Source: Amoebophrya sp. A120
Lineage: Eukaryota > Protista > Dinoflagellata
DNA: 64,000 bases
Assembly: GCA_905178155.1 (NCBI GenBank)
Contig: CAJINV010000007.1
Location: 68,799-132,798, forward strand
Reading direction: 5' to 3'
A model generated the notes under the pieces. That model had not been told where the DNA came from. It was given only the letters and a program-made list of their open reading frames with translations, and did no database searches. The translations under genes were made by a program, and so were the position numbers. Positions 1,667 through 51,499 of the stretch are shown one piece after another; positions within the stretch are counted from its first letter, which is position 1, and the number at the start of each line of letters is the position of its first letter.

Positions 1667-3332
1667 TATAGTTGGGGCTGAGTCCGTTACGGTTCGTTAC
1701 GGCTCGTTTCACCGTAACGAACGAATTTTCGTTCGTTCGTTACGGTTCGTTTCACCGTAACGAACGAACGAACGAGTTCGTTTGTGGCATCAGAACGAAC
1801 AAACGAACGAACGAACGAACGCACTGGCTTTGCCATCCAAACGAACGAACGAACGAACGAACGAACGNNNNNNNNNNNNNNNNNNNNNNNNNNNNNNNNN
1901 NNNNNNNNNNNNNNNNNNNNNNNNNNNNNNNNNNNNNNNNNNNNNNNNNNNNNNNNNNNNNNNNNNNNNNNNNNNNNNNNNNNNNNNNNNNNNNNNNNNN
2001 NNNNNNNNNNNNNNNNNNNNNNNNNNNNNNNNNNNNNNNNNNNNNNNNNNNNNNNNNNNNNNNNNNNNNNNNNNNNNNNNNNNNNNNNNNNNNNNNNNNN
2101 NNNNNNNNNNNNNNNNNNNNNNNNNNNNNNNNNNNNNNNNNNNNNNNNNNNNNNNNNNNNNNNNNNNNNNNNNNNNNNNNNNNNNNNNNNNNNNNNNNNN
2201 NNNNNNNNNNNNNNNNNNNNNNNNNNNNNNNNNNNNNNNNNNNNNNNNNNNNNNNNNNNNNNNNNNNNNNNNNNNNNNNNNNNNNNNNNNNNNNNNNNNN
2301 NNNNNNNNNNNNNNNNNNNNNNNNNNNNNNNNNNNNNNNNNNNNNNNNNNNNNNNNNNNNNNNNNNNNNNNNNNNNNNNNNNNNNNNNNNNNNNNNNNNN
2401 NNNNNNNNNNNNNNNNNNNNNNNNNNNNNNNNNNNNNNNNNNNNNNNNNNNNNNNNCAGCTGCGCAACGTGCGCCAAGAAAAGGCAGCGACCGCGACGCA
2501 CCCAGGGGCCGCCCGCGTGGAGGACACGCATGCAGGATTTTTGGCCCCCACACTACCGAGCCGGACCGCGGGTTTTCGGTCGCCCCCCCGTTCCGGCTCG
2601 TGGCGGCTCCCGTTAAAGTAAAGCTTATACATAAATGAAGGATACCATCGCGGGGAATACTCCGCAGGGCGGTATTCTGTATTTATGTGTCGCCACCCCA
2701 GCGGCTCGACATTCATCCACTAACAATGACCGCCAGCTGCGCAACGTGCGCCAAGAAAAGGCAGCGACCGCGACGCACCCAGGGGCCGCCCGCGTGAAGG
2801 ACACGCATGCACGATTTTTGGCCCCCGCACTACCAAGCCGGGCCGGCTCGCTCGGATGCCTCGGGCTTCGCCTAGAAGAACACGAGCAAGCGCGCGACCT
2901 TGCCGTAATCGGACGGACGTCCAGGGCTCCGCTCGGACGCTCCGCTTGGACCGCCGAGACGAGCATGCCGCCGCATTTCTCTTTGACGGGCAACCGCCTA
3001 CCAGAAGATCTCGCCGGACTTGTTCGCTAAAGAGAAAAGCACAAAGCCAGCGCCGGACGTTCTTCGCCGTCTCGCGGAAAGACGACGAGGGAGTTTTCAC
3101 CTTTTGCAGTGTTCACGCACGGGCGTCTTTTTTCCAAAATCGGATTCGTTCGTTACGGCGTGCCGGCGCGTAACAAGCTCGTTCGTTACGGTGAAACGAA
3201 CCGTAACGAACGAACGGAAATTCGTTCGTTACGGTGAAACGAACCGTAACGAACCGTAACGAACGAACGAAAATTCGTTCGTTACGGTGAAACGAGCCGT
3301 AACGAACCGTAACGGACTCAGCCCCAACTATA
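1667..3332. mobile_element. Non-autonomous DNA transposon with long TIRs and (AACG)n subterminal arrays; contains assembly gap
   Basis: TATAGTTGGGGCTGAGTCCGTTACGGTTCGTTAC at 1667 is mirrored at the 3332 end; AACG/CGTT repeats at both ends; internal direct repeat ~2458-2570 vs ~2734-2845. Confidence 0.8.
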
Positions 3333-4084
3333 CTCTTTTTTCTAATTACTGCTTCATCATACCACCGTGTTTGCGTTTTGATCACATCAACTCACGACGC
3401 TGCAATCTAATATTATCATGTAAAAAGATCCAACTGTCAATCACGGTGGTGCTACACGCATACAGAATTTACTTTGACATGACACGCGGAGGTACGAAAC
3501 ATGACGGCATGATCGTTTGTCGCGACAACAGTACTTGATCACCAATATAAGAAAAAGTTGGTAGTTCGCCCGTGTAGTGTTTATTAATTTTTTAGACGTC
3601 ATGTCGCGAATACTAGATGAAATTACAATATAAGGCAGCCGCGCCGGCTGCACTGCCACGCACTTACAGAATTAGTTTGGCATGCAGAAGTAACATTTCT
3701 TGCAATACAACAACAGGATCGACGAAAGAAAAAATTGATCTCACGCCAGTGTCTTAGCTTGCAGATAAAGATATCGTAAATGACTACAATTTCAAGCAGC
3801 CGCGAAGGCATCGTATTGGTCGTCCTCTTGCTGACGGAACGACGAGAGCAGTGAGAGAGATCTGTCAAGAGAAAAAGCTTTGAATCACGACAGCCGGGTT
3901 TGGAGTAGTTTTTGCATAAGTGCTTATCGTTGTGATTGAGAGCCGGGCGCGGCGTCGTGATCTCCTGATGGTTTTCACCCCTTCCAAGCTGCCAGGGAAC
4001 ACAAATAAAACAGCTGAGAGCGTTTGTAATTTTCATGCACCGCGAAAAACATGAAAAATGGTTCAAAAAATGTAAGAACCAGCA

Positions 4085-5073: not shown

Positions 5074-7422
5074 TTTTGATTTTGGTTTTCCTGCTGCAAA
5101 GAGCAAAAAAAAATTTTGATGTTGCTTGTGGCTATGGAAAAATTGAAAAGGATAAGAATTATTCTTCCGTAACGATCTTGCTACTTGGCTTATACTAGGA
5201 AGGGATGAAGTTCGTTAAAGAAGAAAAATAATATTAACAGTTCTGAAAAAAATGCCGTATTTATACTTGCAAACAGTGTGAATTTTTAAATTTTAATTCT
5301 AGATAGCCATATACAAAACGTCAAAAAAAGCAAATTTGGCAGCATTCCGTGCTGTATTCTTACTTTGGTTTTTCCAAAAAAAACAGCATTGGGTACAAAA
5401 AATGCATTACAAATTGTGAATTTGTACCGAAATACTCACCGACGGGTGGGCAAAAAAATCTTCTTAATGTTTCAAAGAGTAATTTCGTAGCTGGCCCAAG
5501 TCTTTCGTGGATGTTACGGTTACCGAATTTGCATTACAAATGTAGAAAAATGCAATGGCTTATTTTGTATACCGAAAATGATCTACGACACCTACGAAGG
5601 AAGACGAAGCGAAGAATAAAACTATTGCTTCCGATGGGGTGGGTAGGCATTTACGGGAATGGGAATAAACATTCAGGCTCTCCACCAATGTTGGACCGAC
5701 GACTCGAACAACAAATAGAGATAGAACTCAGCTCGAGTTTCGCACGATCGCATTCGTTGAGATACCCACAAAAGACTGTCATTTGGTGTGTGTACAAGAA
5801 TTGCTCAATTCGATTTCGTGCATCACAGATTCATCTTTTCTCGCATCAATTTCTCTTTGTGTAAAAAACAAGAAAAAACATTTTCACGAAAAAAGTGCAT
5901 GACAGACATTTTGTTTCTTCACAGACTCAGTGTGGGACAACAGTTTTCACCCCTTCATCCAAGCTGCCAGGGAACACAAATAAAACAGCTGAGAGAATGC
6001 GCTTAGGCAGTTATTGTTCCTCTTTTCCACTTATAAGGTGGCCCACTGGCGCACTTAGCAACCCACACGCAGTGTGAGTGCTTTACCTTCGACTTCGCCT
6101 TTTTTGTAAAAATCCCGCACAAAGAAATTTGAGCAAGACCAAGACGTGGTAGTTATGCAATTTATCCAAAGTATGTGGTGGACTCTTCATGTTGTATCTT
6201 TATCAAAACTGGCAAGCTCCAGGCTGCAACTGCATGCAATTGCAAGAGCAGGCCATAGAAGAAGTCTCATTAAATTCATCAATTTCATCCACTGCGACTG
6301 CCAAAAGATCGCCCACGAGGCGCAATATGGATATAAACTAAGATTGATCGTTGTCCCGGGAATATGTTTTCAAAACTGAGTAGCACGCGCACTTGTGCAA
6401 CTCCCTCACGCCTTCGCCTTCACTGGTTTCTACGACTCACCAGCAGCTTTGCGGCTAACGCTAAGTTGTTGAGCAGACATTTTTACCACAATGTTCGCTA
6501 TGAGATGAAAAAAGAATCGTACACTCTATATGTCGAGAACTTCAGTTCTGTATAAAAAAAAAAAACTTTTCTACTTCTATTCCAAAAATAAATCACATTC
6601 ATGTGGTCTAGACATGATCGAGAGCTGATCCTCTAGTTCTTAGTTCCATCTTCCAAAAGCGTCATTCACCGAGAAGCATACTGGCACTGTAGGCAGGAGG
6701 AGGAGCAGCCCCCATGCGGAATATGACGAGTTTGTAACTTCTGATGGTGATGTACATGTAGAGATCTCGTCTTCTATATTCATAAGTTCCTACAAAACTT
6801 CCTCCTGCTCAGGCCGCCTATGCATCTCGTCGGGCCATGCTGAGATAACACAGGGTTTCCTGCAAAGGCCGCATCTTGTATGTATCTCGTGCTGTGCTGG
6901 GATTCTTTCTTTCTTTCTTTCCATGCCTGGGCATGGCATCAATTTTTCGAGGCCCGTGCTGGGATAAGTGAAGAAGTTGTTAATACGTGGCGCTCGACTT
7001 GGTTTCAGGAGTGCTTCATCATACAACTACGCCCAGTGGTCAAACGCTGGAATGTCAATGCCTACTGAGCTATAGTACATCTACAAATACAATCATCTCG
7101 TATATCATAATAATGATTATGATTTCAATTTATGAACCTCCGCCAAATGCTATAATGCCCTTTCTTCCCTACTTTCCTACGGGTACTAATTGTTCACAGG
7201 TGTGGCAAATCAGGTCTTCTTCCACCTCTTTCCACGCACGACGCGCAGTCCCGGCGGCCAGCGAAGGCTTGCATATCCATGCGCGGGAAAGAAAACCAGA
7301 GTCTACGTGCCACGACAAAGTTTCAGCTTCTTCGTGTGTTGCAGAAGAGCACTATTTCTACACCACGGCACCCGTTGTAAGTACTTCTCGCTCATCGTCT
7401 CCTCCGACCTGGTGCTGCGTAC

Positions 7423-9664
7423 TTAGTTCCAGGGTCGCGACAGTTGTATCGTCAATTTCAGCGAGTACAACGACCCGTCGCCCTGTTCCTTTTTAACCTT
7501 CATTTCTAGGTGCGTGTGCGTTGTAAAGCCAACCGCTTCGGACATGTTGTTCACTGCAACATGGCCATGGGGTCCAATAACAAGCCTGCCGCGGCGGCGG
7601 CGGCGGAACGAAGCTGCAGCTTCCTGAGAAAGCCGCACGGGCCGCGTCCCAATGACGAGCACTGGCGTTTCAGATGTGCCAGACAAGACCCACCTACATG
7701 TGGCGTGTGGCGGACCTGCTGCCAGTGCGATCTCGAGGACCTTCAGAAATTCCGTGTAGAACGATTTGGAGTCCACAACATCCTGGAACCGCGGAGAATG
7801 CAGTTCTACGTAAGGCTCCAACAACTCTGCCAGCAGGAGCGACTCCTTATGAACTGCAAAAGTATCGTACTCGTATAAATGCATTACAAATTTCCTCAGC
7901 GTGAGAGATAAAATTTGTCATGCGGATTTACGTTAAGAAAAAGATTTGTAATGCAAGACTTGCATTTATACGAGTACGATACTTTTGCACAGGATACTCC
8001 TCCGGCGGCGGCGATGCTGGGCGGCGGGAAAGCAAAGCCGCAAAGGTTTCGTGTCAAATGTAAAAATGTCTGGGTCTGGAAGATTGATGCCAGGTTTGTC
8101 ATGCACATTTTGCATGACTCCTGATCGATCTGTGATATGCATGCCCTAGCATCACAGATTTTGTGAGGACTTCCTGATGCTTATACCGCATGACAAATGC
8201 TCTTTCCGTGTAGCAAAACTTGGACTCTCTTTGCTGCTCATGCAATACAGATTTTTTTAGAATCCAAAAGCAGCATGACAAGTTGCATTCTTCCAGACAT
8301 CCAGGGATTTTTACATTTGATATTTCGTTTGCTGCAGCAAGTTCGGGATGAAAAATCCAGCGCTTCAAACGCTTCTGCTATCCTGTGCAAAAGTAAATCG
8401 CACTCGTACTAATTGCAGTTATGCATTACAAATCTAGCTGTTAAGGTAAATCAGCATTACAAATTCAGGTTTGTAATGCTGAGCTAATTTGTATTGCGAT
8501 TTATACTAGTACGATACTTTTGCACAGGATATTCTGCTATCCTGTGCAAAAGTAAATCGCACTCGTATTTTCAATCGCAGCCATGCATGACAGATCTATA
8601 AGTTACTAAGGGAAATTCGCATTACATGTGGTTTAGCCTAGCGCTTAAGGCTCCGGGGAATAAAACCTTTTCAAGGCTCCGGGGAATAAAACCTTTTCCG
8701 TGCATATATTAAAAAAAAACTCAAACTGAAACAACACACGCCTGGGATTATGGAAGCATATATTTACATTGTGCTAATACTTTCTTGTAATTAGAGCGGG
8801 GGAACAAATGGCCCGTTAACTCGCACCCGCGAGTTAGCCGTCCGCGCGGCCGGCCGGACGCCGGTTAACTCGCGGCTAGAAGTGTTGACAAGTCGAAAGG
8901 TGGCGCAAATCTAAAAACCCGAAGTGCTCCAAAATTTGTAATGCAAATTTCATTCTTTCCGTCTCCCTTCGGAAAAATTTGTCATGCGATCTGTACTAGC
9001 GCGATGCTTTTGCAATGCGTATCTGCTTGACCGCGACAAATTCCTCGGCGAAGTTGACCGGTTTCGACGTGCCGGCAAGCAAATTCCAAAGGTTATCAAA
9101 TGCGAAAGTGTAAGTGTCTGGGTCTGGGAGATTCTGATACTTGTCACGCACGTTTTGCATGAGCCATGATGTCTGTGATGCATGCCGTAGCATCACAGAA
9201 TTTTCAAGGGGCTCTTGATGCCTATTTCGCATGACAAATGCCCTATCCGCGTAGCAAAAATTACATTCCCTTATTTGCTACTCATGAAATACAAATTTTT
9301 TTGGAATCCAAATGCAGCATCACAAGTTGCATTCTTCCAGACCCAGACATTTTTGCACTTGATACAGGTTCGATGGTAATGGAGAATTCACACACGTTGC
9401 TTTAAGCAGGTTCCGAAAATGGGCTGCGACTTTCCTCGTGTCCGCCCCCGGCGGGGGCGCGCTGCCGGCCGCAACTCTTTCCAGCACTGGTTCCGGAAGA
9501 TCTGCCAACGACATTTTTGGAGATGTTCCGTGATTCCCCGCGGCTCGGCAGCCAAGCGGCGCCATCACTCCCATCAGGGAAAAACCGACAAGAAACACCA
9601 TGGAACCAACAACACTCGTGGTGGAGGTCCGCACACGACGGGAGGCGTGCAGCAGCGTCAGCAT
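7423..9664 (-). CDS. Putative secreted protein with F-box-like motif, paralog 1
   Basis: N-terminal hydrophobic stretch, then SLADLPEPVLERVA. Spliced frame: ...LPSN-LWNLLAGTSKPVNFAEEFVAVKQ-KRLKRWIFHPELAAANE-TFAALLSRRPASPPPEE-SLLLAELLEPY...SRPWN*. Aligns with paralog 2. Confidence 0.8.
7848..7996. mobile_element. Introner family A
   Basis: TIR; DR CTCCT; site empty in paralog 2 (~16365). Confidence 0.9.
8052..8322. mobile_element. Introner family B (TATCAAATGYAAAAATGTCTGGGTCTGGAAG)
   Basis: TIR (left end reads TGT); DR TTTCG; site empty in paralog 2. Confidence 0.9.
8379..8531. mobile_element. Introner family A (first of tandem pair)
   Basis: TIR; DR TTCTGC. Confidence 0.85.
8538..9021. mobile_element. 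Introner family A, expanded by nested insertions
   Basis: DR TCTGC; orthologous to 16472-16643; contains a ~25-bp tandem duplication (~8647-8697) and a GAGCGGGG-type TIR end at 8794. Confidence 0.8.
9094..9364. mobile_element. Introner family B
   Basis: TIR; DR AAGGT/CAGGT. Confidence 0.88.
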
Positions 9665-9787
9665 TCTGTAGTTGCGGGCTACTTATTTCTTTGTTGCTAA
9701 AGAGAGGGTCAGGCTTTTGAAAGCTGTGTGTTAAGATGCGCTTAGTTGGCAAGGCTGGTGTCGTGGGGTGTTACACCTCCAGTGGAA

Positions 9788-11064
9788 TTATCATGTAGTG
9801 CACAACTCCCGCTCCCCCTCATCTGTAGTGCATGCATGGCAACACAAGCAATGGTAGATATGAGGCTCCCGCATGACAAATCTCCAGACCGATCGCAGTA
9901 CTGTTTGAGGCTCCGAGATTTGTCATGCGGACAGTGCTTCATCATCATCATGTAGTGGACACCCGCACCCAGCGCCACAGGTCAAGGATCCCCTCCCCGG
10001 GGGGTGGGCGAGGAAGCACTTTCGGCGACCTCCACATACAAAAGCCGAGCGCTACCACGGCAAGTCGCCCCAATAGAAGTACCAACCAGTCGGGAGCTAC
10101 CCACCACACCTGATCAGTACAGCCCGGCCANNNNNNNNNNNNNNNNNNNNNNNNNNNNNNNNNNNNNNNNNNNNNNNNNNNNNNNNNNNNNNNNNNNNNN
10201 NNNNNNNNNNNNNNNNNNNNNNNNNNNNNNCATACAGAACGATCCAGGACCCGACCCATTTTACGCCATAAGTTTTTGTTCTCACGGAAGAGACGACGCA
10301 CCCCTTTGGGCTAAGGGGCGTCGCATGTGAGACAACGCAAAATGAGAAATGTCGGAACTGCTCTAAGACCATATTCCCCCTGGAGCCCAAGCTTCGACAT
10401 TGGTCGCGATGCAAAAACCCTCCCGACAAATAGCCCTGCAAGGTGTACAAACCTAGGACTCCAGTGTCAAGCAGGTGGAGTGTAACTCTGTTTGTTTCCG
10501 CTAGCAGCCCGCATACAGACATTCATAAATAAAGCTGTTTCAGATGTAGATTTGGATGCACTAAAAGCACAAGAAAAATATAGTCCCTGATCATTCCGCC
10601 CCCAAAGCCGCCCCCACGCGCTTGGTCAGCAATATGTATCCACGCCACGAAGAGAAAGCACGCCTCGATCTTTACATGGGTCTTGACCAAAAAGAGCACG
10701 CCTCCACGACGGCGAAGCGGCTATCGGCGACTTTGAACAGGAAGCACGTGGCGGAGCCCCTGGGTAGCCGCGGTTTGGCCTTGTCCGATACGCTATAATT
10801 AGCGGAGTCATACGACTCAAGTACACGATCACTGGAGGAGCCTCTGCGGTGCGACGGCAGCGTGTACTTCAGACCGTTGATTCACTGGCAGCAGGGGGAG
10901 AAACCCCTGCTGTTACATCTTGTCTCCTTCCTTCTCATCCAATCTAGGTCGCAGCCGTCTGCACCCGGCTGCCTAAAACTTACTCTCAAGGGGCCCAGTG
11001 CAGTGGGCCCCGCTCTCGACGGTTTCTACTAATTTAGGCTCGCCTTGAGCCAAAATGGCTACGG
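9788..11064 (-). mobile_element. Spliced-leader-capped retro-insertion (contains 100-N gap)
   Basis: Begins with DinoSL; flanked by a 35-bp direct repeat at 9753-9787 and 11063-11097 (the second overlaps the SL by 2 nt); (TGA)n-like tail near 9940-9952 on the - strand. Confidence 0.7.
11044..11064 (-). other. Dinoflagellate spliced-leader (DinoSL) sequence, genomic relic
   Basis: Reverse complement reads CCGTAGCCATTTTGGCTCAAG, identical to the conserved 21 nt of DinoSL. Confidence 0.95.
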
Positions 11065-12149
11065 CTGGTGTCGTGGGGTGTTACACCTCCAGTGGAAAAA
11101 TTATGGTAGAAGCAGTAAATTTTGGTTGGTTCTAGATCTTAGAGGCAGAGACGGAAGAACATGAAGTAACAACGCAACGGAGAGAGGGAGGGGGGACAAC
11201 ACTTCTGCCTGTAACGTCCAAAGAAATCGAACCACGCTGCTTTGGGAAAAGTAGCCCTAAGTGGCAAGAAGAACTTTGGCGCTCGCTTAAAACGGTGATC
11301 CCAGTGTACATGGCGGTTACAGGCGCCGGCTCCACCATCCATGCACTCACCGCTTTAACGTGTTGGAAGGAAAAGAGTCGGAGGAAGAAATCAAAACCAC
11401 AACACGCACACAAACCGGGATCAAGAAAATTAGATCGCGTGGACCGATGATAACCGAAGGCAAAATACGAAGACCCGATCGAACAATGACGATACGCTAC
11501 GACCCGTACGAGCTTCGAGTTAATGCGAACTTACGATAGGTCTTAGATTACGTAAACGACAAATATCCAAGTACGAGCGAGGTATACAGGAAAGTGTGCG
11601 ACGTAGACGAACTGAAAATCAAAGGTCAAGAACGGACGAGACGATATCATGTACGAGCGCGGCGATGGAAATGCACAGGGGAGATATAGGCCTATAGTCA
11701 AGTACCGATGGATCGCAATTGTGATCTTCACGCACACTCAACAACGCACACAAACATCGAGCGAAAAGAAGCGAGAGTCGGTGTCGATGAGAAGTTGTTG
11801 CCCTGTCGAAGTGCTTTACTTTTGTTTTTTTCATTTGATGCATCGATAAGAGGGGAAGGAAAAACTGTACCTAGGTGCCATTACAGCAAATAACCCATTC
11901 ATTCGCATTTTATGCTTTTTTTTTATCATTCAAATACAAGTCAATGAACATTCATCAGTGCATCATCACAATAGAAGAAAATGATATACTGTGTCCGGGA
12001 TTTCATCGTGTTAATTGGAGTGTGATTTTTGGGTCATATAAAAGTAAGGTTTGAATATCGCAGTGTCCGCTCTGCTGATTACGACGGACCTGGTGACGGT
12101 GGATCCTTTTGGAACTTGTCTGCTTCCTTGACCGATCATCATTTGGCTG

Positions 12150-12929
12150 CTAGACGAAAGGCGTTTGGTCCACACCTTCCCGTTAATTCGCTGCAGCGTC
12201 TGTCTGTTCCTTTCTTCTTGTTCTTCCCGCTGCTGGTCTAGTCTTCGTCGTCTTTCTTCTTCCATCGCTGTCCGCTTTTTGCTTTTTGGTGCGCCCGCCT
12301 TTGCACCTTTTTGCTTTTTCTGTGTTTTTACGCGCTTGGCACTGTCTATCGTGGCCCGGATTGCGATGCCCGTCGGCTTTGTTTCTTTGATTACTTCCAG
12401 TGGTATTGCGTAGTAGTTCAGGTCCTCTTGCGCTTGTCTCCCCCACGGGGTGTTTTGCTTGATCTCCGCCTCGATGCGCGCAAAAGACCCTTCTTTTTCG
12501 TCGCCCCGGCAGGCATGGGCGATCCACGCGACCCTTTTCGCGCGGGCCTCGTCCTCGATAGGCTGCACCCCGAGCTCCTGACAGAGCTCGAGCCTGCTCT
12601 TCCCTTCGTTGCGGTAATGGCCCCCGAGGATTTCGCGAAGAGCTGAGTCCTGGAACCGCCGCAGGGCGGCGTCCTGCGCTGTCGTGGTGACCCACGTCTC
12701 CGCGTTGTACAACGCTACACTCAAGCTCAGCGCCCGATAGAGGTCGGACTTGAGCCTTGTCGGTAGTGTGGCGTCTCGCCACACTGGGGCTAGTTGCTTT
12801 ACGACCCCGGCGGCGATTGCGCACCGCCGTGTCGTTTCTCCTTCTGTGCTGCCGTCTCGACGAAATGGGACGAGGTTCTTTCGGTATTCATACTGCACTT
12901 CTCCTAAGACGAACAATTCTAACAGGTGC
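12150..12929 (-). mobile_element. Non-LTR (RTE-like) retrotransposon fragment, region C-terminal to RT
   Basis: LAPVWRDATLPTRLKSDLYRALSLSVALYNAETW...RRFQDSALREILG...RVAWIAHACR matches the RTE-clade YGxETW / RWxGHxxR region; no RT catalytic core. Confidence 0.8.
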
Positions 12930-12969
12930 ACTTGTCTGCTTCCTTGACCGATCATCATTTGGCTGACAA

Positions 12970-14681
12970 TTGAGGTGTGCTCGTACGGTGGCACCGTGTT
13001 CAGGATCCCCGGACCGAGTTCCCGCGTGACAGGCCAGCAAATAAACGACTTCTCGCCGTCCGTGCGCCACATCTTGATCGGTCCGTAGCGTCTGTACCAC
13101 ATGCGGATTGCTGCGATCACGACATTGGCGTGCCGGGTCTTCGCCGCAAAACCAAGCTTCAACCGGGTAGCGAGGTCCAGCAAGATGAGCAGGTAGATGC
13201 AGCCCGTAATGCTGGGGGTCGTGGGCCCGACGAAGTCCGCCAGGACTTCGTCGCCGAGCTCCGTGGCAGAGCTCTCCGTCTTCCCGGTCGTCGGCTTGTG
13301 CTGGTGGTTCTTGAACATGCAAGTTTCGCAGCCCGGAAACTCGTTGGTGTGCCCGAACCTGCGGTGGTCAACTTCCTCTGCGGCGAGTTTCTCGACACCA
13401 GTGGCGAAGCTAAGCGCCGGAAGCTGCTGGCCGTGGTCGCTGGTGGTTGCTGTTGGTAGTTGTTGCTGCTGCGACGTCAGGCTGTGCGGGAGACTGGACA
13501 CGAAACAACTCTGCACATCGGGAAAGATGGGATCAAGACCGCCGGCCTGGATCGCGCACCAAACCTTGATGGTGGCGAAGCCGTTGCGCTTGTTAGCGGA
13601 ATACATCTTGTCGCCGTGTATGAAGTATCCCTCCGTGGTCCGGTCGTAGATCTTGAAACGCGAAGCCAGCACGTGCGAGCTCAACAAATTCGGTCCGTGG
13701 GGCCGAAAAACGGTGTCTACGACGTCCCGAAGCGGTTCCTCGCTGTCCAGCGCAAACTGCACCAACCCGCTGTTGTTGGTCGCGGAATTGCTGCTGTTGG
13801 TCATGCTGAGGTTCCTCTACCGGGACCAAGACCTGCGCCGGTCTTGCGTCGACGGGAACATGCTGCTGCGCGGCAGCATGCTGTTGCTGCGGAACGAACT
13901 CTTGCTGCGGCGGCATCGGAAGACGTGGTGGTGCTGGCGGTGCGAGAATTTGATGTTGTTGTTGCGGAGCAGGAGCGTGTTGTTGTGGCGGCGGGGGTGG
14001 AGGGGCAAAGTTGGCGACCTGTACGATTGGAAGCGCTGGCGGTTGAATCGCGTTTGCCGGTGCTGGAGCCGCAGGTTGTTGCTGTGGACGGCGGAAGTTC
14101 CGCCGAGCCTCCTGCAGCGCTGCCTCGAAAGCGGCATCGGCGCTGCGCATCCGTACTATCTGGCACCTGATCGCCGCGGTGGTGCGCTGAGTGTGGCCCG
14201 CCACTGTGGTGCGGATCTCCTCGAGCGCCGCATCTCCGAACGTGCCGTGCCGCCGGTAGACGCCGATCAGGTAGTCCTTGCCCAATGCCGGCGCGTGAGG
14301 TCGCGGCATCTCTGTCCCCCGCTGCGCCGCTCCCTTAAAGTCGTAAGGGGCTCATAACTTGTAGATCTGGGTAGGGATCATAATCATGGTGTTCCGCCGA
14401 ACACCGAAGGATTGGGTCGAGATGCGACCCACGCATTGTTCTTGTTCATCATTTCATTGTTGGATTGCGTGCATTCTCATATTGTACAAAGCCAAAACTA
14501 GTGCGTTTGGTGAATTCAGAGATTGAAGAGGTTCACGGAGCTGAGTACTTTGCTCAGGCTCTTGTTGCGTGCCTCTCTCATCATCATGTTATTGCTCTCA
14601 GTGTGCTGTCAGTGCGCTCATGGTCCTCATCTTCTCATTCCCCAGACGACCCGACGACTGTCGAACAGTGAGGTATCTACA
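12970..14681 (-). mobile_element. Ty1/copia-like LTR retrotransposon fragment (Q/P-rich N-terminal ORF plus truncated integrase)
   Basis: HRRFGH...CETC zinc motif, ADFVGP...LILLDLATR...RTDGEKSF...TVPPYEH, cut before the catalytic Glu; upstream ORF 13593-14309 is in another frame. Confidence 0.85.
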
Positions 14682-15575
14682 GGAACTTGTCTGCTTCCTT
14701 GATTTGGCTGACAAGGATCAGATACACATATAGTTTTCGCTTATCACCTCCACGGGTACGGGCTGGAATTGATCTTTGTACTATTCAAAAATTTGAGCTT
14801 AGTTGAGAGCCGGGCGCGGCGTTCTTTCTCGATCATTTATTCCACCTGCAAGCTGCCGGGCGGGGGGAAGAACAAAATTACACTTTTGCCCAAAAAACTT
14901 AAATTGGAAGGGTGTCGATACTTTTGCTCCTGTTTTCGACGGTTCTAAGTACTCCGACAATGCATCGTGTTTGGTCACGTGTTCTAGACATGATCGAGAG
15001 CTGATGCTCTAAATCTGTTCTATCTGCCAGAAGCATCATTGACCGAGAAGCATACTGGCACTGTAGGCAGGAGGAGGAACAGCCCCTATGCGGATGAATA
15101 TGGCGAGTTTGTAACTTCCGATGTAGAAATCTCTGTCTCTCGTTCTATATTCATACATAAGTTCTTAGAGGCCTTCCTGCTCAGGCCGCCTCTTGTATGT
15201 TGTATCTCGGGTCATGCTGGGATAAGTGAAGAAGTTGTTAATTATGCGTGGCGCAGCTCGACTTGGTTTCAGTGCTTCATCATACAACTACGCCCAGTGG
15301 TCAAACGCTGGAATGTCAACGACCACTGTTGAGCTAGTACATCTACAAGTACAATCTATCTCGTATAATAATGATTTTAATGAACCTCCGCCAAATGCTA
15401 TAAATGCCCTTTCATCTTGTTCCCTACTTTCCTAGTAGGGTAAAAATTGTTCACAGGTGTGGCAATAAATCAGATCTTCTTCCACCTCTTGATTCCACGC
15501 ACGACGCGCAATGCCGGCCAGCGAAGGCTTGCATATGCATGTGCGCCTTGGTAGTTTCAGTGCTTCATCATACAA

Positions 15576-17603
15576 CTACGGCGCGCCATATGTCAACCAG
15601 GGGTCAAACACTGGAACTGGTCGTGGCGCCACCAGCTTTATCTCCAATGTCAGCAAGTACTCTTCGCCCTGCTCCTGTTGGGGTCCGCTCGGACTCGGGT
15701 TCTCCACCTCCACTTTTGCAGCCTGCATTCTGAGGTACGTTCCAGTCCGAAAGCCGGCATCGTCGGTGTAATCCAGAGGGGCTTCAAAGGCAAGGCCGAG
15801 AAAGTCGAAAGCTGCTAAAATTTCCTGAGAAAGACGCACGGGCTCCATCATATTAACCGCGATCCCATTTGGGCCCATCAAAAATCCAAATTCGGCGCGC
15901 GGCCCATCAGCTTCCTTCACCCCAAAGGCAAATCCAAATTCGGCGCGTGGCGGCACTGCTTGCAGCCCGGTCTCGAGGATCTTCAGAAGTTTCGGATAGG
16001 CACTGTATGGGGTTCTCAAACGTTACACTCTCAAATGTTAATACATGATTTGTCATGTAAGTTTGCCATGAGTACCTACATGATCAAGCTGCTTCGCATG
16101 ACAAGTTCGCGACTCGCAAAATAGGATTAGAATCTCAATCTGTGCCAACCCTGTAGTGCAAAAGGCGCAATCTTCCCCCTTTCGATTTTGGCACTCTTGC
16201 ATTACAAACTCACGCAACAGTTGAGAATGTAAACATTTGAGAACGCCATACACTGCGTTGAGCCCGTCGAGCTAGTCCACGGGGATCTTCACCAGCATAA
16301 TTTCCGTACCGATCATCATGCCACGTCGGAAGATAAGGTTGCAGCAACTCTGCCAGCAGGAGCGACTCCTCCGGCTTCGATTCTCGAGGGCGGGAAAGTA
16401 ACCCGGCAAAGGTTTTGTCTACCGCAGCGAGTTTGGGATGAAAAGGCCCCGCCCGCTCTGCACGCTTCTGCTATCCCAGGCAAAAGTTTTTATATCGCAC
16501 TCGTACTTCTATCTAGTAATCGCAGCCACGCATGACAGATCTATGGTCTATGGACCACAATCCGCCTATTATACAAATTCCATTCTTTCTTGTCATGCGA
16601 TTTAGATACTATACCAAGTGCGAAGATGCTTTTGCAATGGGTATCCGCTTGACCGCAGCAAAGGCTTCAACTAACTTGCGCAATTCTGTGCCCAATTCTT
16701 GCGCGCGATCCACATATTAAAGTGAAAACTGCCACCCACCCCTGAAATTGCAAAAATTTGCGATGCGAAGTTTCCAAATGAAAACTTTTTGTCATGCATG
16801 AAAGGAGTATGAATCTTTCTGATGCAGAGCCTAGGCGTGTATCGCATCGCTTGCATGACAAGCGCCGCTCTTGCTGGGGTCTTTTGCAATACAAATTTTT
16901 TCTATTCACGATTGGAAACCTGTAATGCTGATAGATGCAAGAGGGCGAGTGTTTCACTTGGTGGAAAGGCTTGCAATACAAATGCTCCCAAGTTCGGGGG
17001 TGGGGGCATTTTTCATTGTGATACCACATACGGCAAGTTCCATGGAGCATTCGTACACGTTGCACGAAGCAGGTTCCTATCAACTGCAAATATGTCTGGG
17101 TCTGGAAGGGTGTAAACTTGTCATGCAGGTTTCCCATGAGCATGACCTGACCCATGAGGTTTGGAATGCGGGACCTAGCACTACAGAGTCCGCGAGGTCT
17201 CTGTCATGCCTATCCTGCATGAGAAGCTCCCTCCCAACTTGGTCGAAAGTGGACAGGCAACCACAACACAGATTCATTTTTGCATGATTCGGATTTAGAA
17301 TGACAAGCCGCAATCTTCCAGACACAGACACTTTTGCATTTGATACTTCCGAAAATGGGCTGCGACTTTCCGCGTGTCCGCCCCCGGGGGCGGGGCGCTG
17401 CCGGCCGCAACTCTTTCTAGCACTGGTTCCGGAAGATCTGCCAACGACATTTTTGGAGACGTTCCGTGATTCTCCGCGGCTCGGCAGCCAAGCGGCGCCA
17501 TCATCCCCGTCACCGAAAAACCAACAAGAAACACCATGGAACCAACAACGCTCGTCGTGGGACTCAGCACACGACCACGGCAGGCGTGCAGCAACGTCGG
17601 CAT
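15576..17603 (-). CDS. Putative secreted protein with F-box-like motif, paralog 2
   Basis: Spliced frame: MPTLLHAC...SLADLPEPVLERVA...AAHFR-NLLRATCTNAPWNLPYV-DRAQELGTELRKLVEAFAAVK-xKRAERAGPFHPKL...RAQRS-AYPKLLKILE...TYGAP*. Confidence 0.82.
16006..16250. mobile_element. Introner family C (TATGGNGTTCTCAAA)
   Basis: TIR; DR CACTG. Confidence 0.9.
16472..16643. mobile_element. Introner family A, older copy shared with paralog 1
   Basis: Degenerate TIR; DR TCTGC/TCCGC. Confidence 0.8.
16715..17023. mobile_element. Introner, family D-like (CCCCACCCC subterminal)
   Basis: Imperfect ~35-bp TIR; DR CCACA. Confidence 0.82.
17078..17345. mobile_element. Introner family B
   Basis: TIR; DR GTTCC/CTTCC; empty site AGCAGGTTCCGAAAAT in paralog 1 (~9405-9420). 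Confidence 0.9.
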
Positions 17604-18767
17604 TCTGTTGCGGGCTACAACTTGATGTTTCTTTGCTGCCTCTATAATTATTTGCTGTTTCTGCTACTAGTGCAAGTTGCTCGATAGTTCTGTCACTGGT
17701 TCTTATATCCTGGCGTTGAGAGTTTTACTTTCTTTGCCAGGAGCACGATGAAGCTGCACTAGTACTAGATGAGCTGCCGCTGCGGCTTACAACTATTATT
17801 AATTTGTGTGTAGGAAAATAAAACAAGTAAAAAAATGGCACTGACGCCGCTCGCTTGTGCTCTTGATTCGTACTACGTAAAAGAAGTTCAGGCTTGGTGG
17901 AAGACAAAGATTAAGATAGTTGTTGGCGATAATGATATATGTACTGCAACTGTTGCTGTTCTTACGTTTCAACGTTATAACTCCTGCGAGGTACGTACGT
18001 GACAGAACACAACCAGGATGAAGATTTTGTTCTCACGCGACGTCACATTTTCGAAGTGGAGACTGTCTGCAGTCATGTGTTTACATTTTCATTGCCCGGA
18101 TCGTCGTGGTGGTCATCGATGGATTGTGTCCATGTCGTTCAAAAATACATAACCGATTTTCATGACGGATGGTGGATCTTTATCCTGAAAATTGTCTGTT
18201 TCTTTGGCCGATCATCATTGTCATTCGGCTGTGACAAGGATCACATATAGTTTTCGCTTATCACCTCCACGGGATGTTGATAGTAGAACTTTGCATTTGG
18301 AATTTTGTACTTGGTTGAGAGCTGGTGCCGGGCATCAAGGGATCGCTTCTTGATCCTTACGACCCCCGGCAAGCTGCCCGGCGGAAAAAACGAACAAGAA
18401 CACGACAAATATAAAAAAACTGGAAAGAAGATCATGCGCTTCGGCTACTTTTGTTCCTGTTTTTCCTTTTCGCTCCTTGTTCTGCTTCGAAAATATTAAA
18501 TCATGTTCATGTAGTTGTTTTCCTTTTGGACATCGAGAGCTGATGTTTTCGCTCCTACTTTGTTCAGAAGCATCATCACCGAGCAGCATACTGGCACTGA
18601 TGGAGGCTCGTTCTTTGTCGGAGGTCTTCGAAGCAGTTGATTCTACTTGCAGTGGGTAAGTTTTGCTTCAGTGACATTAATCATGCATCCTCACACGTGG
18701 AGTTTTAGCGTTTTCAATTTTTCAACTTGGCTTCTACTTCGCGTTGACCATAGGATCTCATATTTTA

Positions 18768-21700
18768 TTACCTCCTCGCCCCCCTTTCCTTCGAGTACAC
18801 CCGAAACTTCGGCGATGGCCCTCTGGCTCTCGGCTTGATCTTCTTCAGTTGCGGCTTCAGCAACTCCGCCGCAAGTTCCTCTCCCAGTTTAAAAAACTCG
18901 GCCTTCTTCGCCTCTTCGTCGTCCTTTTCCGTGGAGTCTTTACTATTTGTCGCTCCTTTCTCTTTATTCTTCTCCTTGGTTTTCTTGGTAACTTCCAACG
19001 CTTTCTTCACCAAGTCAAACTTATCTTCCTCGTCTCGCTCTCGAATATGTTTCGGCGCTTGCTGCAGTAGTTCTACTTTGGGAGCAGATTTAGCAGTCTT
19101 GTAGTTCTCCTGCAGCTGATCTTCCTTGTCCTCGCCGGCGCCAGCTTTTTTCGTAGCCGCGTGATCGTCATCTTCAGGCTTGTTGTTATGCTCTTGATCA
19201 ACATGATGTTCTCCGGCAACCGCAGCGGTTGACGAGTCTACTTTTTGGTTCATCTATGGCGTTCTCAAATGTTACATCCTCAACTGTTACATGATTTGTC
19301 ATGCAAAACCCCAATCAGATTCGACGCGATCAAGCTGTTGCGCATGACAAATTCTTGAAGGTCCAAACAGGCTGAAGATCTGTCATGCAAGACGCGCAAG
19401 ATCTCCCCTATCACTTTTGCCATTCTTGCATCACAAATTCATGTAACAGTTGAGAATGTAACAGTTGAGAACGCCATATCATCTCCGCAGTTGTTGTAGC
19501 ATCTCCGTGGTTTTGTCGACCCTCGGCGCGTATCAAGTGCAAAAATGCCTGGGTCTGGAAGGTTAGAACTTGTCACGCTAAATCTGAATGATGCAAAAAT
19601 CTGTGTTGCGTGAGTACCGAAAGCTGTCCGCTTTTGACCAAGTTGAGAGGGAGTTTCTCATGCAGGAAAGGCATGATAGAGACCTCAAAAAATCTGTCAT
19701 GCTGGGTCTCGCATTCCAGACCTCATGGGCCATGGAAAACCTGCATCACAAATCTTGCACTCTTCCAGACCCAGACATTTTTACATTTGATACCGCGCCC
19801 CGGATCTTGTTCTTCGTCCTTCTTGATCATTCCTGCTGTCGTATCACAGAAAAAAATGCTATATGTTTAAACGGAATTTGTGATGCAGTAACACATCGCA
19901 AAACGTGCACAAATTTGTCATGCGTAGCATGCATGCCAGGAAAGATTTTTCATGCATATTTGAAATCTGTGAAAACCGTTTTTAACGTAAAACACTTTTT
20001 TGTTTGATATGTCGTCTTTTCATCGCCGTCATTCTCGTCTTTCTTCCGTTCCTTCAGAACCACCCTGCTCAGCCCCGCCGTCCGAATCTCCTCCTCTTCA
20101 GAACTCGACAAAACATCATCCTTATCAGCGAACGCGTCCAACGCTAAGTCGCCTTCGTTCTGCGGTAGGTCCGCATCCTCATTCCCCCGCTTGCTCCTGA
20201 TGCCAGTTGTGCTCGCCCCCTTCTTGCCCTTGCCCTTGTCAACACTGTTCATCTTTCCTCGGCCCTTATTGCCGCGGTCCCGACGGTTGTCGCGAGAGGA
20301 ATCTCGTCTGCGGCGGCGATCCTCGAAGGATCCGCGCCGGTCGCGAAAGCCGTACATGCCTCCGCGTCCTCCTCCGCCGCGACGGCCAAAGGACCGTCTT
20401 ATGCAGTGCAAAAGTATCGCACTCGCATAAATGCATTACAAATTCCCTCAGCACGAGAAATAAAATTTGTAATGCTGATTTACCTCGGGGAAAATATTTG
20501 TAATGCATGATTGCAATACGAGAACGATACTTTTGCACAGGATACGTCTGTTTCCACCGCCGCGCCCGCTCCGCCGACGAGAATCTGACCTCGATCGCGC
20601 GTTCCTCCTACGTGTTCTTCGGCGGTCGCTGCTATCAAATGTAAAAATGTCTGGGTCTGGAAGAATGCAAGTTTGTCATGCTTGTCTCGCGTGACTCTGG
20701 AATCTGTCATGCGTGAGCAGGAAAGCAGCCTCTTACCTGTCATGCAAAAACGCAGTTTGTCATGCGGGAAGCGAAACATATAGGAGCTCAGAAACTTGTC
20801 ATGCGTGGCTGCGTAACGCAGTGCGCCTACCATGCACAAACTAGCAGTACAAGTTTCCAGACCCAGACATTTTTGCATTTCATAGCTGCCGGACCGAGAG
20901 CGTGATCTCCTCCTCCGTGGCCCACTTCCACCACGACGACCGCGTCCTCGAGAATTTTTACCCGACCTGGATATGCATTGCAAAAGTATGGCACTCGTAC
21001 TAATTGCAGACATGCATGACAAATCGCCTTTCTTAGCTACAACAGCATTACAAATTCCATTTGTAGTGCTAAGCTAATTAGTCATGCAATTTATACTAGT
21101 ACGATAGTACTTTTGCACAGGATACTGGACCGACTCCGTTTATTTTCCTTGGACCTCGAGCCTTTGCCCCGCGAGGACTTGCTCCGGGACGAAGAAGAGT
21201 ATGCAGATTGCAATAGCATCGCAGTCGTAGTATTCGCAATAATGGTGAATGACAGATCTAGTATCTTCCTTGTGGTCGTGGTGTGCACGAACTAATATTA
21301 CCATTACAAATTCATTCCAGTATTTTCATCATGCTGACAAAATTTTCTACTAGAACGATACTTTTGCATTGCGTAAAGAGGTTCCACCTGACTGCCCGCG
21401 CCGGCGGGAGTGGCTGCGACTCCGGAGCTCTACTTTATCAAAAGTAAAAGTGTCTGGGTCTGGAAACTTGTGATGCTGGGTGGCGTCTCATGATGAGGCT
21501 ACAGATGCTGGCTCAGCATGACAAGTTTCTGAGCTCCTAGGTGTTGCCTATTCTGCATGACAAACTGCGCTTCTGCATCACAGAAAAGCGGAGCTCTTGG
21601 GTAACGTGCATGACAGATTTAAGAGTCATGCCAGACAAGCATGACAAACATTAATTCTTCCAGACCCAGACATTTTTACAGTTGATATACTTTCGGCCTG

Positions 21701-24700: not shown

Positions 24701-25765
24701 ACCTGTTTGCCTTCGCGAGTCGTGGCGAATGCCTTTGATCTTACGAATGCGCTTGTACTTGTTCTAGTTTCGATGCAATATCATTGAGCCAGAAGGAAAA
24801 AAAAAACTTCTTGATTTTATAGATACCTCTTCCTTCTCTTGCTCCCGTGCCTCTTCCTCCCTTTTTCGCCGTTCCCGCTCTTTCTCATACTTCTATGCAA
24901 TACAAATTATTACCGTACTAGCACACATAATGAAACATACACACACAAAGCGCAGTTACAAATTTCGACATCAACTTAGAAAGAAGATGAGTGTGTAGCT
25001 ACTTGTCATGCGGAAGAGGGTGGAAGGCAAACTTTGTCATGCGGTGACCGCATTGGAGTCATCTTCGTCAGGTGCTCGTACGATTCATCTTTGCCGTGGG
25101 TAACTTGGTTTCCAGGTCCAGCTCGGTCTCGCAGGCGGCGCCCTCGTGCACTTCCTCTCCGTACCAGGCACAAATCTGCCGAAAAACGTCCACCGCTTGG
25201 TGGCTGCAGTCGATAAAGGCCGCGTCGCCGGGGTAATAGTATTTCTTGATCTCGTTTCCGAATTTTGACCAGGGAAACCCGAGCCCATGCTTTCTCCCGC
25301 ACATTTTTCCCAAGTTAATCAAGTATCCCGAGGAAAAACTACGGGGCCCACACCGCAGAGTCGTCAGGTAGATGGGGATTTTGCAACACGAACCTAGAAG
25401 CTCAAGCTTTGGGAGCCCTCACGCAGGAGCATGATAGACATAAACAGAATGTGCTAGTACTTGGGAGTCACGCATGACAATGTAGAAGTGCAGGTGAGCA
25501 AGGACAGCCGCATTGCAAATCCATCTGCTGATCCTGTTTACACCATTGCAAATTCCAAAATGCCTATCTTCATGGGGATGCGCATCACAAGTGTTCCCTG
25601 TCATTGCAGACCTGCATGACAACTCTGGTCGGGTGGGGACATTTTTACACAGGATATCAAGTCCCGGGCCTTCTCTTCGTCCTTGCAGCCGGGTTTGATG
25701 CGCTGCTTGAGAAACTGCATCAGCAGATGCTTCTTCTCTCGCCGCACATCCTTGGAGGTGCCCAT
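18768..25765 (-). CDS. Large Lys/Arg/Ser-rich low-complexity protein, at least 14 introners
   Basis: Junctions translated are in frame (e.g. DEKTT-AGMIKKDEEQDPGR-AEG, RSGS-DRRR, QREK-NAKKRH). Likely start MGTSKDVRREKKHLL at 25765. The segment 24580-25100 needs a frameshift or unresolved intron, and the 3' end could continue via a GT donor. Confidence 0.65.
19255..19478. mobile_element. Introner family C
   Basis: TIR; DR TCATC. Confidence 0.9.
19531..19792. mobile_element. Introner family B
   Basis: TIR; DR GCGCG/CCGCG. Confidence 0.88.
19842..20009. mobile_element. Introner (degenerate TIR)
   Basis: TATCA...TGATA; DR TGTCG; frame restored. Confidence 0.8.
20400..20544. mobile_element. Introner family A
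   Basis: TIR; DR CGTCT. Confidence 0.9.
20633..20884. mobile_element. Introner family B
   Basis: TIR; DR GCTGC. Confidence 0.9.
20972..21124. mobile_element. Introner family A
   Basis: TIR; DR CTGGA. Confidence 0.9.
21200..21375. mobile_element. Introner family A (degenerate)
   Basis: TAT...GTA; DR AAGAG. Confidence 0.8.
21436..21687. mobile_element. Introner family B
   Basis: TIR; DR TACTT. Confidence 0.9.
21818..21970. mobile_element. Introner family A
   Basis: TIR; DR GCTTT. Confidence 0.9.
22300..22455. mobile_element. Introner family A
   Basis: TIR; DR TGGAA. Confidence 0.9.
22635..22787. mobile_element. Introner family A
   Basis: TIR; DR CTGCT. Confidence 0.9.
23992..24136. mobile_element. 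Introner family A
   Basis: TIR; DR TTCTT/TCCTT. Confidence 0.88.
24222..24373. mobile_element. Introner family A
   Basis: TIR; DR CGGCT. Confidence 0.9.
25324..25656. mobile_element. Introner family D
   Basis: Imperfect TIR; DR TCAAG; joins EEKARDL-INLGKM. Confidence 0.82.
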
Positions 25766-40929: not shown

Positions 40930-41091
40930 TTAGAAGTGACAACATCTTCTCCTGCAGACGGGCGCGGCAGAGCAGCTACTCATGTTCAGCTGCGAAACTT
41001 TTGTGGAAGTTCTAAGTACAGCTAGCGCAGTACTAGATGGCCTGCTCGTCGTGTAGTAGAAGTCCCATTTCGTACGACTAGTTTAATATCG

Positions 41092-49720: not shown

Positions 49721-49721
49721 G

Positions 49722-50045: not shown

Positions 50046-50219
50046 CGAGTGAAGTAGGGGGCCACTCGGATCCGCGCGATCGCGTGCCACTTTCTTACTG
50101 AAATCCCTAAGGAACAAAAGAACTCAGCTGATCGCGCGCCCGAGGAGAACAACGCGATCAGGCGGCCGAATAGTGAAGGCGGCGATCGCATCCCTGCAAG
50201 CTGTACATGGATTGCCACC

Positions 50220-51430: not shown

Positions 51431-51499
51431 AGAGTTTTGCTAGCGCGGGAAGAAAACCCGCAAAACTGAAGAGAGATCAGCTGCCTTGCGATTCTTGAC

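What the first reader, a model, noticed from the sequence alone, without database searches (positions are those of the whole stretch)
7423..17603. Recently duplicated paralogs with almost completely different intron sets: intron gain caught in the act
Seen: the first exons are near-identical, but only one intron position is shared (8538-9021 = 16472-16643). Paralog 1 alone has 7848, 8052, 8379 and 9094; paralog 2 alone has 16006, 16715 and 17078. Empty sites carry one copy of the 5-mer (e.g. AGCAGGTTCCGAAAAT), showing that the repeat is a target-site duplication (TSD) and that elements were gained (or precisely lost) after duplication.
Basis: seen in the sequence. Interest (0 to 1): 0.75.

Follow-up and report, generated by a model that had tools for sequence, protein, structure and literature searches.

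The report
Transposon introns gained after gene duplication
Two neighbouring copies of an orphan gene in the marine parasite Amoebophrya share one transposon-shaped intron position and differ at six others, which were likely inserted after the gene duplicated; this is the expected footprint of an already published intron-spreading element, apart from one back-to-back pair predicted to be cut out as a single piece.

Summary
Observation largely right, interpretation partly. Two minus-strand paralogs (P1 9664-7423, P2 17603-15576) carry nine TAT..ATA inverted-repeat elements with 5-nt target duplications, the published introners of Amoebophrya A120. Spliced P2 equals the deposited A120 protein, and RNA-like contigs lack all four P2 elements plus exactly 5 nt each. 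One position is shared and six are private. 8379 is not a new position: it abuts the shared element. Only 3 of 6 private sites show a clear empty 5-mer. Gain beats loss: private elements have abundant close relatives, the shared one does not, and a third database copy has a further private element. 'Recent' holds only for exon 1 (dS 0.13-0.2); the rest has dS 0.3-0.6 and omega about 1. Rough rate: one gain per 20-90 neutral substitutions. No polymorphism was seen, so not 'in the act'. The pair is unlikely to be a chimera, but P1 may be a collapsed double copy. One oddity: the 8379+8538 tandem keeps the frame only if removed as one 648-nt unit, and folding predicts that. The scan had already noted this element class and its fixed cut on other DNA of this genome.

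The parts
7423..9664 (-). Paralog P1: reading frame of 295 aa from the ATG at 9664 (274 aa from the ATG at 9601) once elements are removed; stop TAA 7425-7423; no deposited full-length protein found
   Evidence: not returned by the P0001 searches
15576..17603 (-). Paralog P2: 337-aa orphan protein, identical to deposited A120 protein CAD7954842.1 / GSA120T00026015001.1
   Evidence: spliced in RNA-like contigs
7848..7996 (.). P1-private introner, about 150-nt family, TSD ctcct/ctcct; empty site with one 5-mer in P2 at 16366-16370
   Evidence: (93% to 24222)
8052..8322 (.). P1-private introner, about 270-nt family, TSD tttcg/tttcg; empty site 4/5 in P2
   Evidence: (94% to 41826)
8379..8531 (.). 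Second element at the shared site; chimeric: first 30 nt and the preceding 6 nt copy the left end of the 8538 element (36-nt direct repeat 8373-8408 = 8532-8567), remainder closest to 22636/20972
   Evidence: rare 2-nt insertion absent from about 97% of laid family depth, table 4
8538..9021 (.). Shared (likely ancestral) introner in P1, about 180-nt core plus a nested 306-nt insert at about 8627-8932
8375..9022 (-). Predicted compound intron of 648 nt (both tandem elements removed as one unit keeps the frame)
   Evidence: inference
9094..9364 (.). P1-private introner, about 270-nt family, TSD aaggt/caggt; empty site not confidently alignable
   Evidence: (88% to 56228)
16006..16250 (.). P2-private introner, TSD cactg/cactg; removed with 5 nt in RNA-like contigs (skip 16001-16250)
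16472..16643 (.). Shared introner in P2, TSD tctgc/tccgc; the deposited protein keeps the upstream (transcript) copy at the mismatch
16715..17023 (.). P2-private introner, TSD ccaca/ccaca; no close relative in the window
17078..17345 (.). P2-private introner, TSD gttcc/cttcc; empty site with one 5-mer in P1 at about 9410-9414
6599..7285 (.). P1 3' flank, homologous to 14975-15545 (89-95% identical without gaps); holds a 49-nt stretch 7010-7058 identical to 15271-15319
14975..15545 (.). P2 3' flank / 3' UTR, covered by the spliced RNA-like contigs
7029..15270 (.). Block with about twice the DNA contig depth of its flanks: likely a collapsed near-identical extra copy of P1 plus spacer; contains the N gap 10131-10230
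   Evidence: inference from single-contig depths, (two runs of one sample)

Best explanation
Two tandem copies of an orphan Amoebophrya A120 gene share one intron position and differ at six, because non-autonomous TAT..ATA inverted-repeat introners likely inserted independently into each copy after the duplication. Shown: each element has terminal inverted repeats and a 5-nt flanking duplication; removing element plus 5 nt restores an open frame; all four P2 elements are missing by exactly that length from RNA-like contigs. Inferred: a cut-and-paste type transposase, not identified, makes a 5-nt staggered cut; the new element folds into a hairpin in the transcript and is removed with one copy of the duplication, so the protein is unchanged and the insertion can drift to fixation. 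One element predates the duplication and has since aged. The duplication is moderately old (dS about 0.13-0.2 in exon 1, 0.3-0.6 downstream), and the ends were probably homogenised later by conversion or unequal crossing-over. A later event at the shared site in P1 made a back-to-back pair that must be removed as one 648-nt unit to keep the frame.
For: TSD far above chance. Both frames open after removal; spliced P2 is identical to the deposited protein. X5 record 12 and X7 record 18 skip 16001-16250 and hold exactly 116 nt between 17347 and 16466, the length expected with three elements plus 5 nt each removed, while DNA contigs of X1 retain element ends joined to exons (15290-16105, 16088-16764). 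Empty sites clear at 3 of 6. Age contrast: in X1 the bin holding the shared P2 element has summed depth 125 (neighbouring unique bins about 52) against 14,675, 72,352 and 112,034 for the three private P2 elements, so private elements have many near-identical relatives and the shared one has few. Private positions alternate between copies along the gene, unlike block loss through cDNA. A third, P1-like copy (P0003, unnamed NCBI contig) begins with a translated introner end (10 of the top 10 window matches are family ends, scores 34-45 against 25-29 for 10 shuffles) directly before a site empty in both P1 and P2.
Against: Three of six private sites have no confidently alignable empty site. P1 splicing rests on the reading frame alone. 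Orthology of the shared pair has only 63% bootstrap, and with one choice of core other family members score as high. Dating is uneven: four-fold sites differ at 8 of 39 in exon 1 and 5 of 30 in hand-picked middle blocks (p=0.76), but third positions differ at 29 of 116 downstream codons against 40 of 539 flank sites (p=4e-7) and 8 of 63 in exon 1 (p=0.056). The RNA-like contigs are one sample, their RNA nature is a guess by the tool, and the deposited model was itself built from transcripts, so the two are not independent. Summed depth is only a rough proxy for family abundance. No transposase was identified.
Confidence: 0.8

Rival explanations
1. Mosaic old paralogs: the coding middle diverged long ago and collected its elements over that longer time, and only exon 1 and the 3' flank were made alike recently by gene conversion or unequal crossing-over. 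Gains are real, but the first exon gives a false date. This modifies the best explanation and does not exclude it.
For: Flanks 89-95% and exon 1 93% identical against 61% downstream. Third-position divergence downstream exceeds flank divergence (p=4e-7). Similarity drops at the 17078 insertion site (93% to about 70%). Doubled depth between the two copies of a 49-nt identical stretch suggests unequal crossing-over is active here.
Against: Four-fold sites in the best middle blocks are no more diverged than in exon 1 (5/30 vs 8/39; blocks hand-picked, so biased low). The 3' boundary of high similarity lies near the stop codons, not at an element. Omega about 1 with both frames intact (neutral chance of no stop 0.05 per copy at 0.165 substitutions per site) also fits fast adaptive change after one duplication.
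Confidence: 0.4
2. The ancestor had all seven positions and each copy lost three precisely, by excision with microhomology repair or by recombination with spliced cDNA.
For: An empty site with one 5-mer is also what precise loss leaves; PMC7789003 section 16 says gain and loss could not be told apart between orthologs.
Against: Private elements have abundant near-identical relatives, the shared one does not; losses would have to alternate between copies; P0003 adds a site empty in both.
Confidence: 0.07
3. The 'shared' position is two independent insertions at a hot spot, so no element predates the duplication.
For: P1 has a second element at this very site; bootstrap for the pair is 63%; the family makes up 17 of about 51 catalogued window elements.
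Against: Same orientation, same rare GTA terminus, shared internal motifs, sister position in the tree; the second P1 element is partly a local copy, not an independent arrival.
Confidence: 0.12
4. P1 is a dying copy: the tandem is cut as two introns at the fixed register, a 1-nt exon is left, and the frame shifts to a stop after 187 residues.
For: Two separate cuts (1 nt before TAT, 4 nt after ATA) give that frameshift; each element alone folds end to end; omega about 1 downstream of exon 1.
Against: The underlying frame is intact over 274 codons; equilibrium folding pairs the outer ends (about 19 expected pairs) and hides the inner junction in a hairpin of about 27 pairs, 11.3 kcal/mol better than two separate hairpins.
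Confidence: 0.3
5. Assembly chimera: P1 and P2 are haplotypes or come from two strains joined across the N gap.
For: 100-N gap at 10131-10230 between the copies; depth differs about twofold between them; DNA contigs differ from the window at 7061 and 9085.
Against: One DNA run holds 87% of the words of the whole stretch with contigs of 0-1 differences on both copies; the copies are only 61% identical in the middle, too far for alleles; each has its own outer flank. A collapsed third copy explains the depth and the odd bases better.
Confidence: 0.05

Closest known systems
Introner elements / non-canonical introns of Amoebophrya sp. A120 (Farhat et al. 2021, PMC7789003; abstract, passages, sections 10, 11, 12, 16 read; supplement searched for five terms, figures not visible)
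   Same: TAT + 7 nt + A-run inverted repeats, 5-bp direct repeats (legend of Fig. S19), hairpin folding, non-GT-AG borders, enrichment in poorly conserved genes; P2 is one of that project's gene models.
   Different: They compared orthologs between A25 and A120 and could not polarise gain against loss. In the text I read and searched there is no intron comparison between paralogs, no gain rate and no back-to-back pair.
Introners across eukaryotes (Gozashti et al. 2022, PMC9860276; 2025, PMC12130899; passages read)
   Same: Non-autonomous TIR/TSD elements creating introns without changing the mRNA; A120 is named as having massive gain, 'tens of introns in a single gene'.
   Different: In the passages read, paralogs are filtered out as false positives and not used as a clock; most described families carry or recruit GT/GC/GA-AG sites.
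Introner-like elements of Symbiodinium and Polarella (Roy et al., bioRxiv 10.1101/2020.10.14.339549; passages read)
   Same: TSD-flanked gains, splice sites that span the TSD/element boundary, and use of TSD mismatches to read later changes.
   Different: Those recruit GA/GC/GT..AG sites; here 0 of 9 introns are GT..AG at the likely register.
Intron gain in paralogous families, including malaria parasites (reviewed in Rogozin et al. 2012, PMC3488318; passages read; the primary papers not read)
   Same: Paralog comparison shows more gains than losses, linked to fast protein evolution in duplicates.
   Different: There the source of new introns is not visible; here each gain is a recognisable element with its TSD.

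Membership tests
Amoebophrya A120 introner element | 8-20 nt terminal inverted repeat | tested here: met
   12-17 of 20 terminal bases complementary in 9 of 9; 19-28 expected end-to-end pairs when each is folded alone
Amoebophrya A120 introner element | IR begins TAT, 7 variable nt, then at least three A | tested here: met
   profile of 56 ends: T 56/56, A 55/56, T 54/56, A at positions 11-14 in 51-56 of 56; 16006 has a weaker variant
Amoebophrya A120 introner element | 3-5 nt direct repeat at the borders | tested here: met
   5/5 in five, 4/5 in three; 8379 has 6 nt
Amoebophrya A120 introner element | removed from transcripts (P2) | tested here: met
   4 of 4 P2 elements absent plus 5 nt in X5 and X7 contigs (one sample, RNA by guess); identity to the deposited protein
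Amoebophrya A120 introner element | removed from transcripts (P1) | tested here: inconclusive
   open frame only; no junction-spanning record
Amoebophrya A120 introner element | repeated family elsewhere in the genome | tested here: met
   window relatives at 77-94% for 7848, 8052, 8379, 9094, 16006, 17078; 16715 has none in the window but high laid depth
Amoebophrya A120 introner element | borders other than GT-AG | tested here: met
   0 of 9 GT..AG at the -1/+4 register: 5 start GT, 4 start AT; 3 end AG. P2 mismatches allow only a start 1 or 2 nt before TAT
MITE (non-autonomous TIR DNA transposon) | TIRs, fixed-length TSD, short and high copy | tested here: met
MITE (non-autonomous TIR DNA transposon) | cognate autonomous element with the same ends | not testable with these tools
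   no genome held; PMC7789003 section 16 reports no transposase in A120
Recent tandem duplicate as defined by Farhat et al. (95% protein identity over 90% of length) | at least 95% protein identity | tested here: not met
   57% over 259 aligned codons; definition
F-box protein (resemblance of the LADLPEPVLERV motif, by eye and recalled) | match to an F-box profile | tested here: not met
   no Pfam family at E up to 5; no usable Atlas feature hit

The most novel reading that the evidence does not exclude
The 8379+8538 tandem is a natural test of how Amoebophrya removes its non-canonical introns. The two inner termini pair with each other, the outer termini pair, and the whole 648 nt is cut out as one compound intron. 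That would mean the cut sites are chosen by hairpin geometry and not by the local terminal sequence, and that introners can stack at one site without breaking the gene. With it goes a within-genome clock of about one new intron per 20-90 neutral substitutions, in a tandem array that is still expanding.
Probability: 0.35. Interest if true: 0.65.

Novelty: new member of a known kind. Interest (0 to 1): 0.38.

Why it matters
The element class is known, and different intron sets between diverged paralogs are what it predicts. The pair still adds three things. It polarises gain against loss, which the original paper could not do between species. It gives a first rough rate against synonymous divergence (0.011-0.05 gains per site per unit dS; one gene pair, six events). 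It supplies a back-to-back pair whose splice product would separate a hairpin-geometry model from a local-signal model for a splicing route that is still unexplained. A genome-wide version over all paralog pairs would be the real result.

Tried and rejected
No whole genome was held, so nearest relatives and further paralogs could be sought only in the window. The run search listed no holder on record as RNA and no second strain. P1 exons had no cover in X5, X6, X7, X8 (one sample), X3 or X9, apart from one 151-nt record in its 3' flank at depth 2.3. This shows nothing about silence: X9 did not cover P2 exons either, and X3 gave only short repeat pieces. Metagenome scan with exon 1: one weak locus (48% over 29 aa), not pursued. 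Protein searches found only P0001 (P2 itself), P0002 and P0003. Pfam and Atlas gave no family or fold, so the F-box idea was dropped. The idea that P0002's C-terminal tail is read-through into another introner was not supported by the scan (best score 24, shuffles 22-28). The idea that elements act as conversion barriers fits the 5' boundary but not the 3' one. Treating 9094 and 16715 as one slid intron was rejected: they are of different sequence families. One likelihood-ratio p value (3e-11 at omega 0.92) is taken as an optimiser failure and was ignored. Three mis-paired rows were dropped and six hand-defined elements added before the spacing count (51 elements; shortest gap 6 nt, next 31 nt). 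Literature searches and the supplement search ('paralog', 'tandem', 'nested' 0 hits) showed no paper on paralog-based introner gain in Amoebophrya or on back-to-back introners; subscription journals and supplement figures were not visible. PMC11282704 returned only a reference-list passage.
Full report
What is there. The region holds two minus-strand copies of one gene, about 8.2 kb apart, separated by a 100-N gap and a decayed mobile element. Five have a perfect 5-nt flanking duplication, three have 4 of 5, and 8379-8531 has a 6-nt one. Across the window the 5-nt rule is far above chance: 13 of 51 pairs chosen blind to flanks are perfect against 0.17% expected; a profile-based catalogue gives 22 of 48 against 0.13%, with none perfect at other lengths (its seed was chosen after seeing flanks).

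They behave as introns. Removing each element with one copy of the duplication opens both frames. The spliced P2 model is letter for letter the deposited protein CAD7954842.1 of Amoebophrya sp. A120, which names the organism. In two RNA-like contig sets of one sample, single contigs lie on 17347 upward, 16251-16466 and 16000 downward, with exactly 116 nt between the first two pieces and 250 nt skipped before the last: all four P2 elements plus 5 nt each are absent. DNA contigs keep element ends joined to exon. The two mismatched duplications in P2 allow the intron to start only 1 or 2 nt before TAT. This agrees with the '1 before, 4 after' register in earlier notes of this scan, which I then used. 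At that register none of the nine is GT..AG. The motif, the 5-bp repeat and the hairpin match the introner elements described for A120 (PMC7789003, sections 10, 11, 16 and the legend of Fig. S19).

Shared and private positions. 8538-9021 and 16472-16643 sit at the same codon under all four alignments, in the same orientation, and are sisters in a tree of 17 family members, weakly (63%). The P1 copy has a nested 306-nt insert. Six positions are private: 7848, 8052, 9094 (P1) and 16006, 16715, 17078 (P2). A single 5-mer at the empty site is clear for 7848, 17078 and 8052; the other three lie in gap-rich stretches. 8379 is not a seventh position, because it touches the shared element.

Gain or loss. 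Three lines favour gain. First, in a DNA run laid at 92% likeness, the bin with the shared P2 element has summed depth 125, close to unique bins at about 52, while the three private P2 elements give 14,675 to 112,034. Summed depth is only a rough proxy, but the contrast is a hundredfold or more: private elements belong to abundant, closely related families and the shared one has drifted away. Second, private sites alternate between copies, unlike block loss through cDNA (inference). Third, a P1-like protein from an unnamed contig (P0003, 87% over the matched part of the last exon) starts with residues that match translated ends of the 150-nt family (top 10 of 10 matches; scores 34-45 against 25-29 for shuffles), placed directly before a 5-mer at 7747-7751 that is empty in both P1 and P2. 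Its DNA could not be seen, so this is inferred from protein.

How old. Exon 1 is 93% identical (dS 0.21 by counting, 0.13 by likelihood; omega 0.28, p=0.003). The rest is 45% identical in protein, with dS 0.33 and omega 1.0 on 116 consensus codons and dS 0.6-0.7 on all 196. The non-coding flanks are 89-95% identical without gaps. Third positions downstream differ more than flank sites (29/116 vs 40/539, p=4e-7) and perhaps more than exon 1 (8/63, p=0.056). Against this, four-fold sites in five hand-picked middle blocks are no more diverged than exon 1 (5/30 vs 8/39). So the duplication is moderately old, and the ends may have been homogenised later. With six gains, a target of about 918 nt and dS 0.13-0.6, the rate is 0.011-0.05 gains per site per unit dS; at dS 0.33 it is 0.020 (Poisson 95% range 0.007-0.043), about one intron per 50 neutral substitutions. 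This is one selected gene pair in an element-rich window, so it is likely to be high. Nearest window relatives of the private elements are 77-94% identical, 16715 has none, and no polymorphism was seen, so 'caught in the act' overstates it.

Assembly. One DNA run holds 87% of the words of the whole stretch, with contigs of 0-1 differences on both copies, which argues against a species chimera. Single-contig depths are 76-83 from 7029 to 15071 against 44-47 over P2 and beyond in X1, and 41-71 over P1 against 13-32 in the left flank in X2 (same sample). The block's ends fall at a 49-nt stretch identical in both 3' flanks (7010-7058 = 15271-15319). The P2 transcript has C at 15079 where the DNA contig has A, and DNA contigs differ from the window at 7061 and 9085. 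The simplest reading is a second, near-identical P1+spacer unit made by unequal crossing-over and collapsed in the assembly (inference; depth is a hint, not a copy number).

The tandem. The first 30 nt of 8379-8531 and the 6 nt before it are identical to the left end of the 8538 element (36-nt repeat), including a 2-nt insertion that about 97% of laid family depth lacks (table 4). Its remainder is closest to 22636 and 20972, and it is the only one of 17 family members with the same end type on both sides. It is therefore a chimera, made by insertion followed by local conversion or by template switching. Two separate cuts at the fixed register leave a 1-nt exon and a stop after 187 residues; one 648-nt cut restores the 274-codon frame. 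Folding pairs the outer ends (17-19 expected pairs in all four settings) and locks the inner junction into a hairpin of about 27 pairs, 11.3 kcal/mol better than two separate hairpins. The 6-nt gap is the shortest among 51 catalogued window elements; the next is 31 nt. Whether P1 is spliced this way is untested.

Mechanism. Shown: anatomy, frame restoration, removal from RNA-like contigs for P2. Inferred: insertion by an unidentified transposase with a 5-nt staggered cut; hairpin-guided removal with one duplication copy, leaving the protein unchanged; fixation by drift in a weakly constrained orphan gene (no Pfam family or Atlas hit); later conversion at the ends.

Against what is known. The class, its massive spread in A120 (PMC12130899, passages) and its link to poorly conserved genes (PMC7789003 section 12) are published. 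Excess intron gain in paralog families is an old result (PMC3488318, passages). Five searches and the supplement text search showed no paralog-based polarisation or rate for these elements and no back-to-back case; subscription journals and supplement figures were out of reach. Verdict: a real, clean instance of a known system, with a usable clock and one testable oddity. Interest 0.38.

Noticed in passing
window 7029-15270: DNA contig depth is about twice that of both flanks in two runs of one sample, bounded by a 49-nt stretch identical in the two 3' flanks: likely a collapsed third gene copy.
   Followed up: partly
window 12011-13816 (minus strand): 601-codon frame with a weak integrase core match (rve, E 2.5e-4, below cut-off). 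12150-12929 lies between 36-nt direct repeats (12114-12149 = 12930-12965) and resembles the end of a LINE reverse transcriptase by eye only (recalled, no Pfam hit). A gag-like proline/glutamine-rich frame lies at 13593-14351.
   Followed up: partly
window 8627-8932: 306-nt insert nested in the shared P1 element, with a short tandem repeat and a GC-rich hairpin (8827-8875) followed by CTAG, Helitron-like by recall; no other copy in the window.
   Followed up: no
window 9365, 17346, 19793: Three mismatched duplications have G at the base just before TAT on the transcript strand while the other copy does not, which creates a GT start. Five mismatches fall at this position; too few to test.
   Followed up: partly
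P0002 (unnamed NCBI contig, 103 aa): P2-like N-terminus (76 of 88 identical to P2, 71 of 88 to P1) that diverges after KVAAHF, close to the 17078 site; possibly read-through into another insert, not supported by the scan.
   Followed up: partly
window 6617-6689, 14993-15060, 18532-18599; 3940-4020, 5943-5995, 14709-14756, 18232-18273: Short sequences shared downstream of several minus-strand genes: a possible repeated 3' UTR or intergenic motif.
   Followed up: no
window 39293-40930, 32840-33494, 49719-52618: Large internally repeated and partly palindromic arrays.
   Followed up: no
window 1682-1867 and 3179-3332: Inverted copies of a GAAC-rich microsatellite-like repeat on either side of the N gap 1868-2456, enclosing a 112-nt duplicated segment (2457-2568 = 2734-2845).
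   Followed up: no
window 18600-25700 (minus strand): Neighbouring long lysine/arginine-rich gene with about 14 introners of the same families.
   Followed up: no
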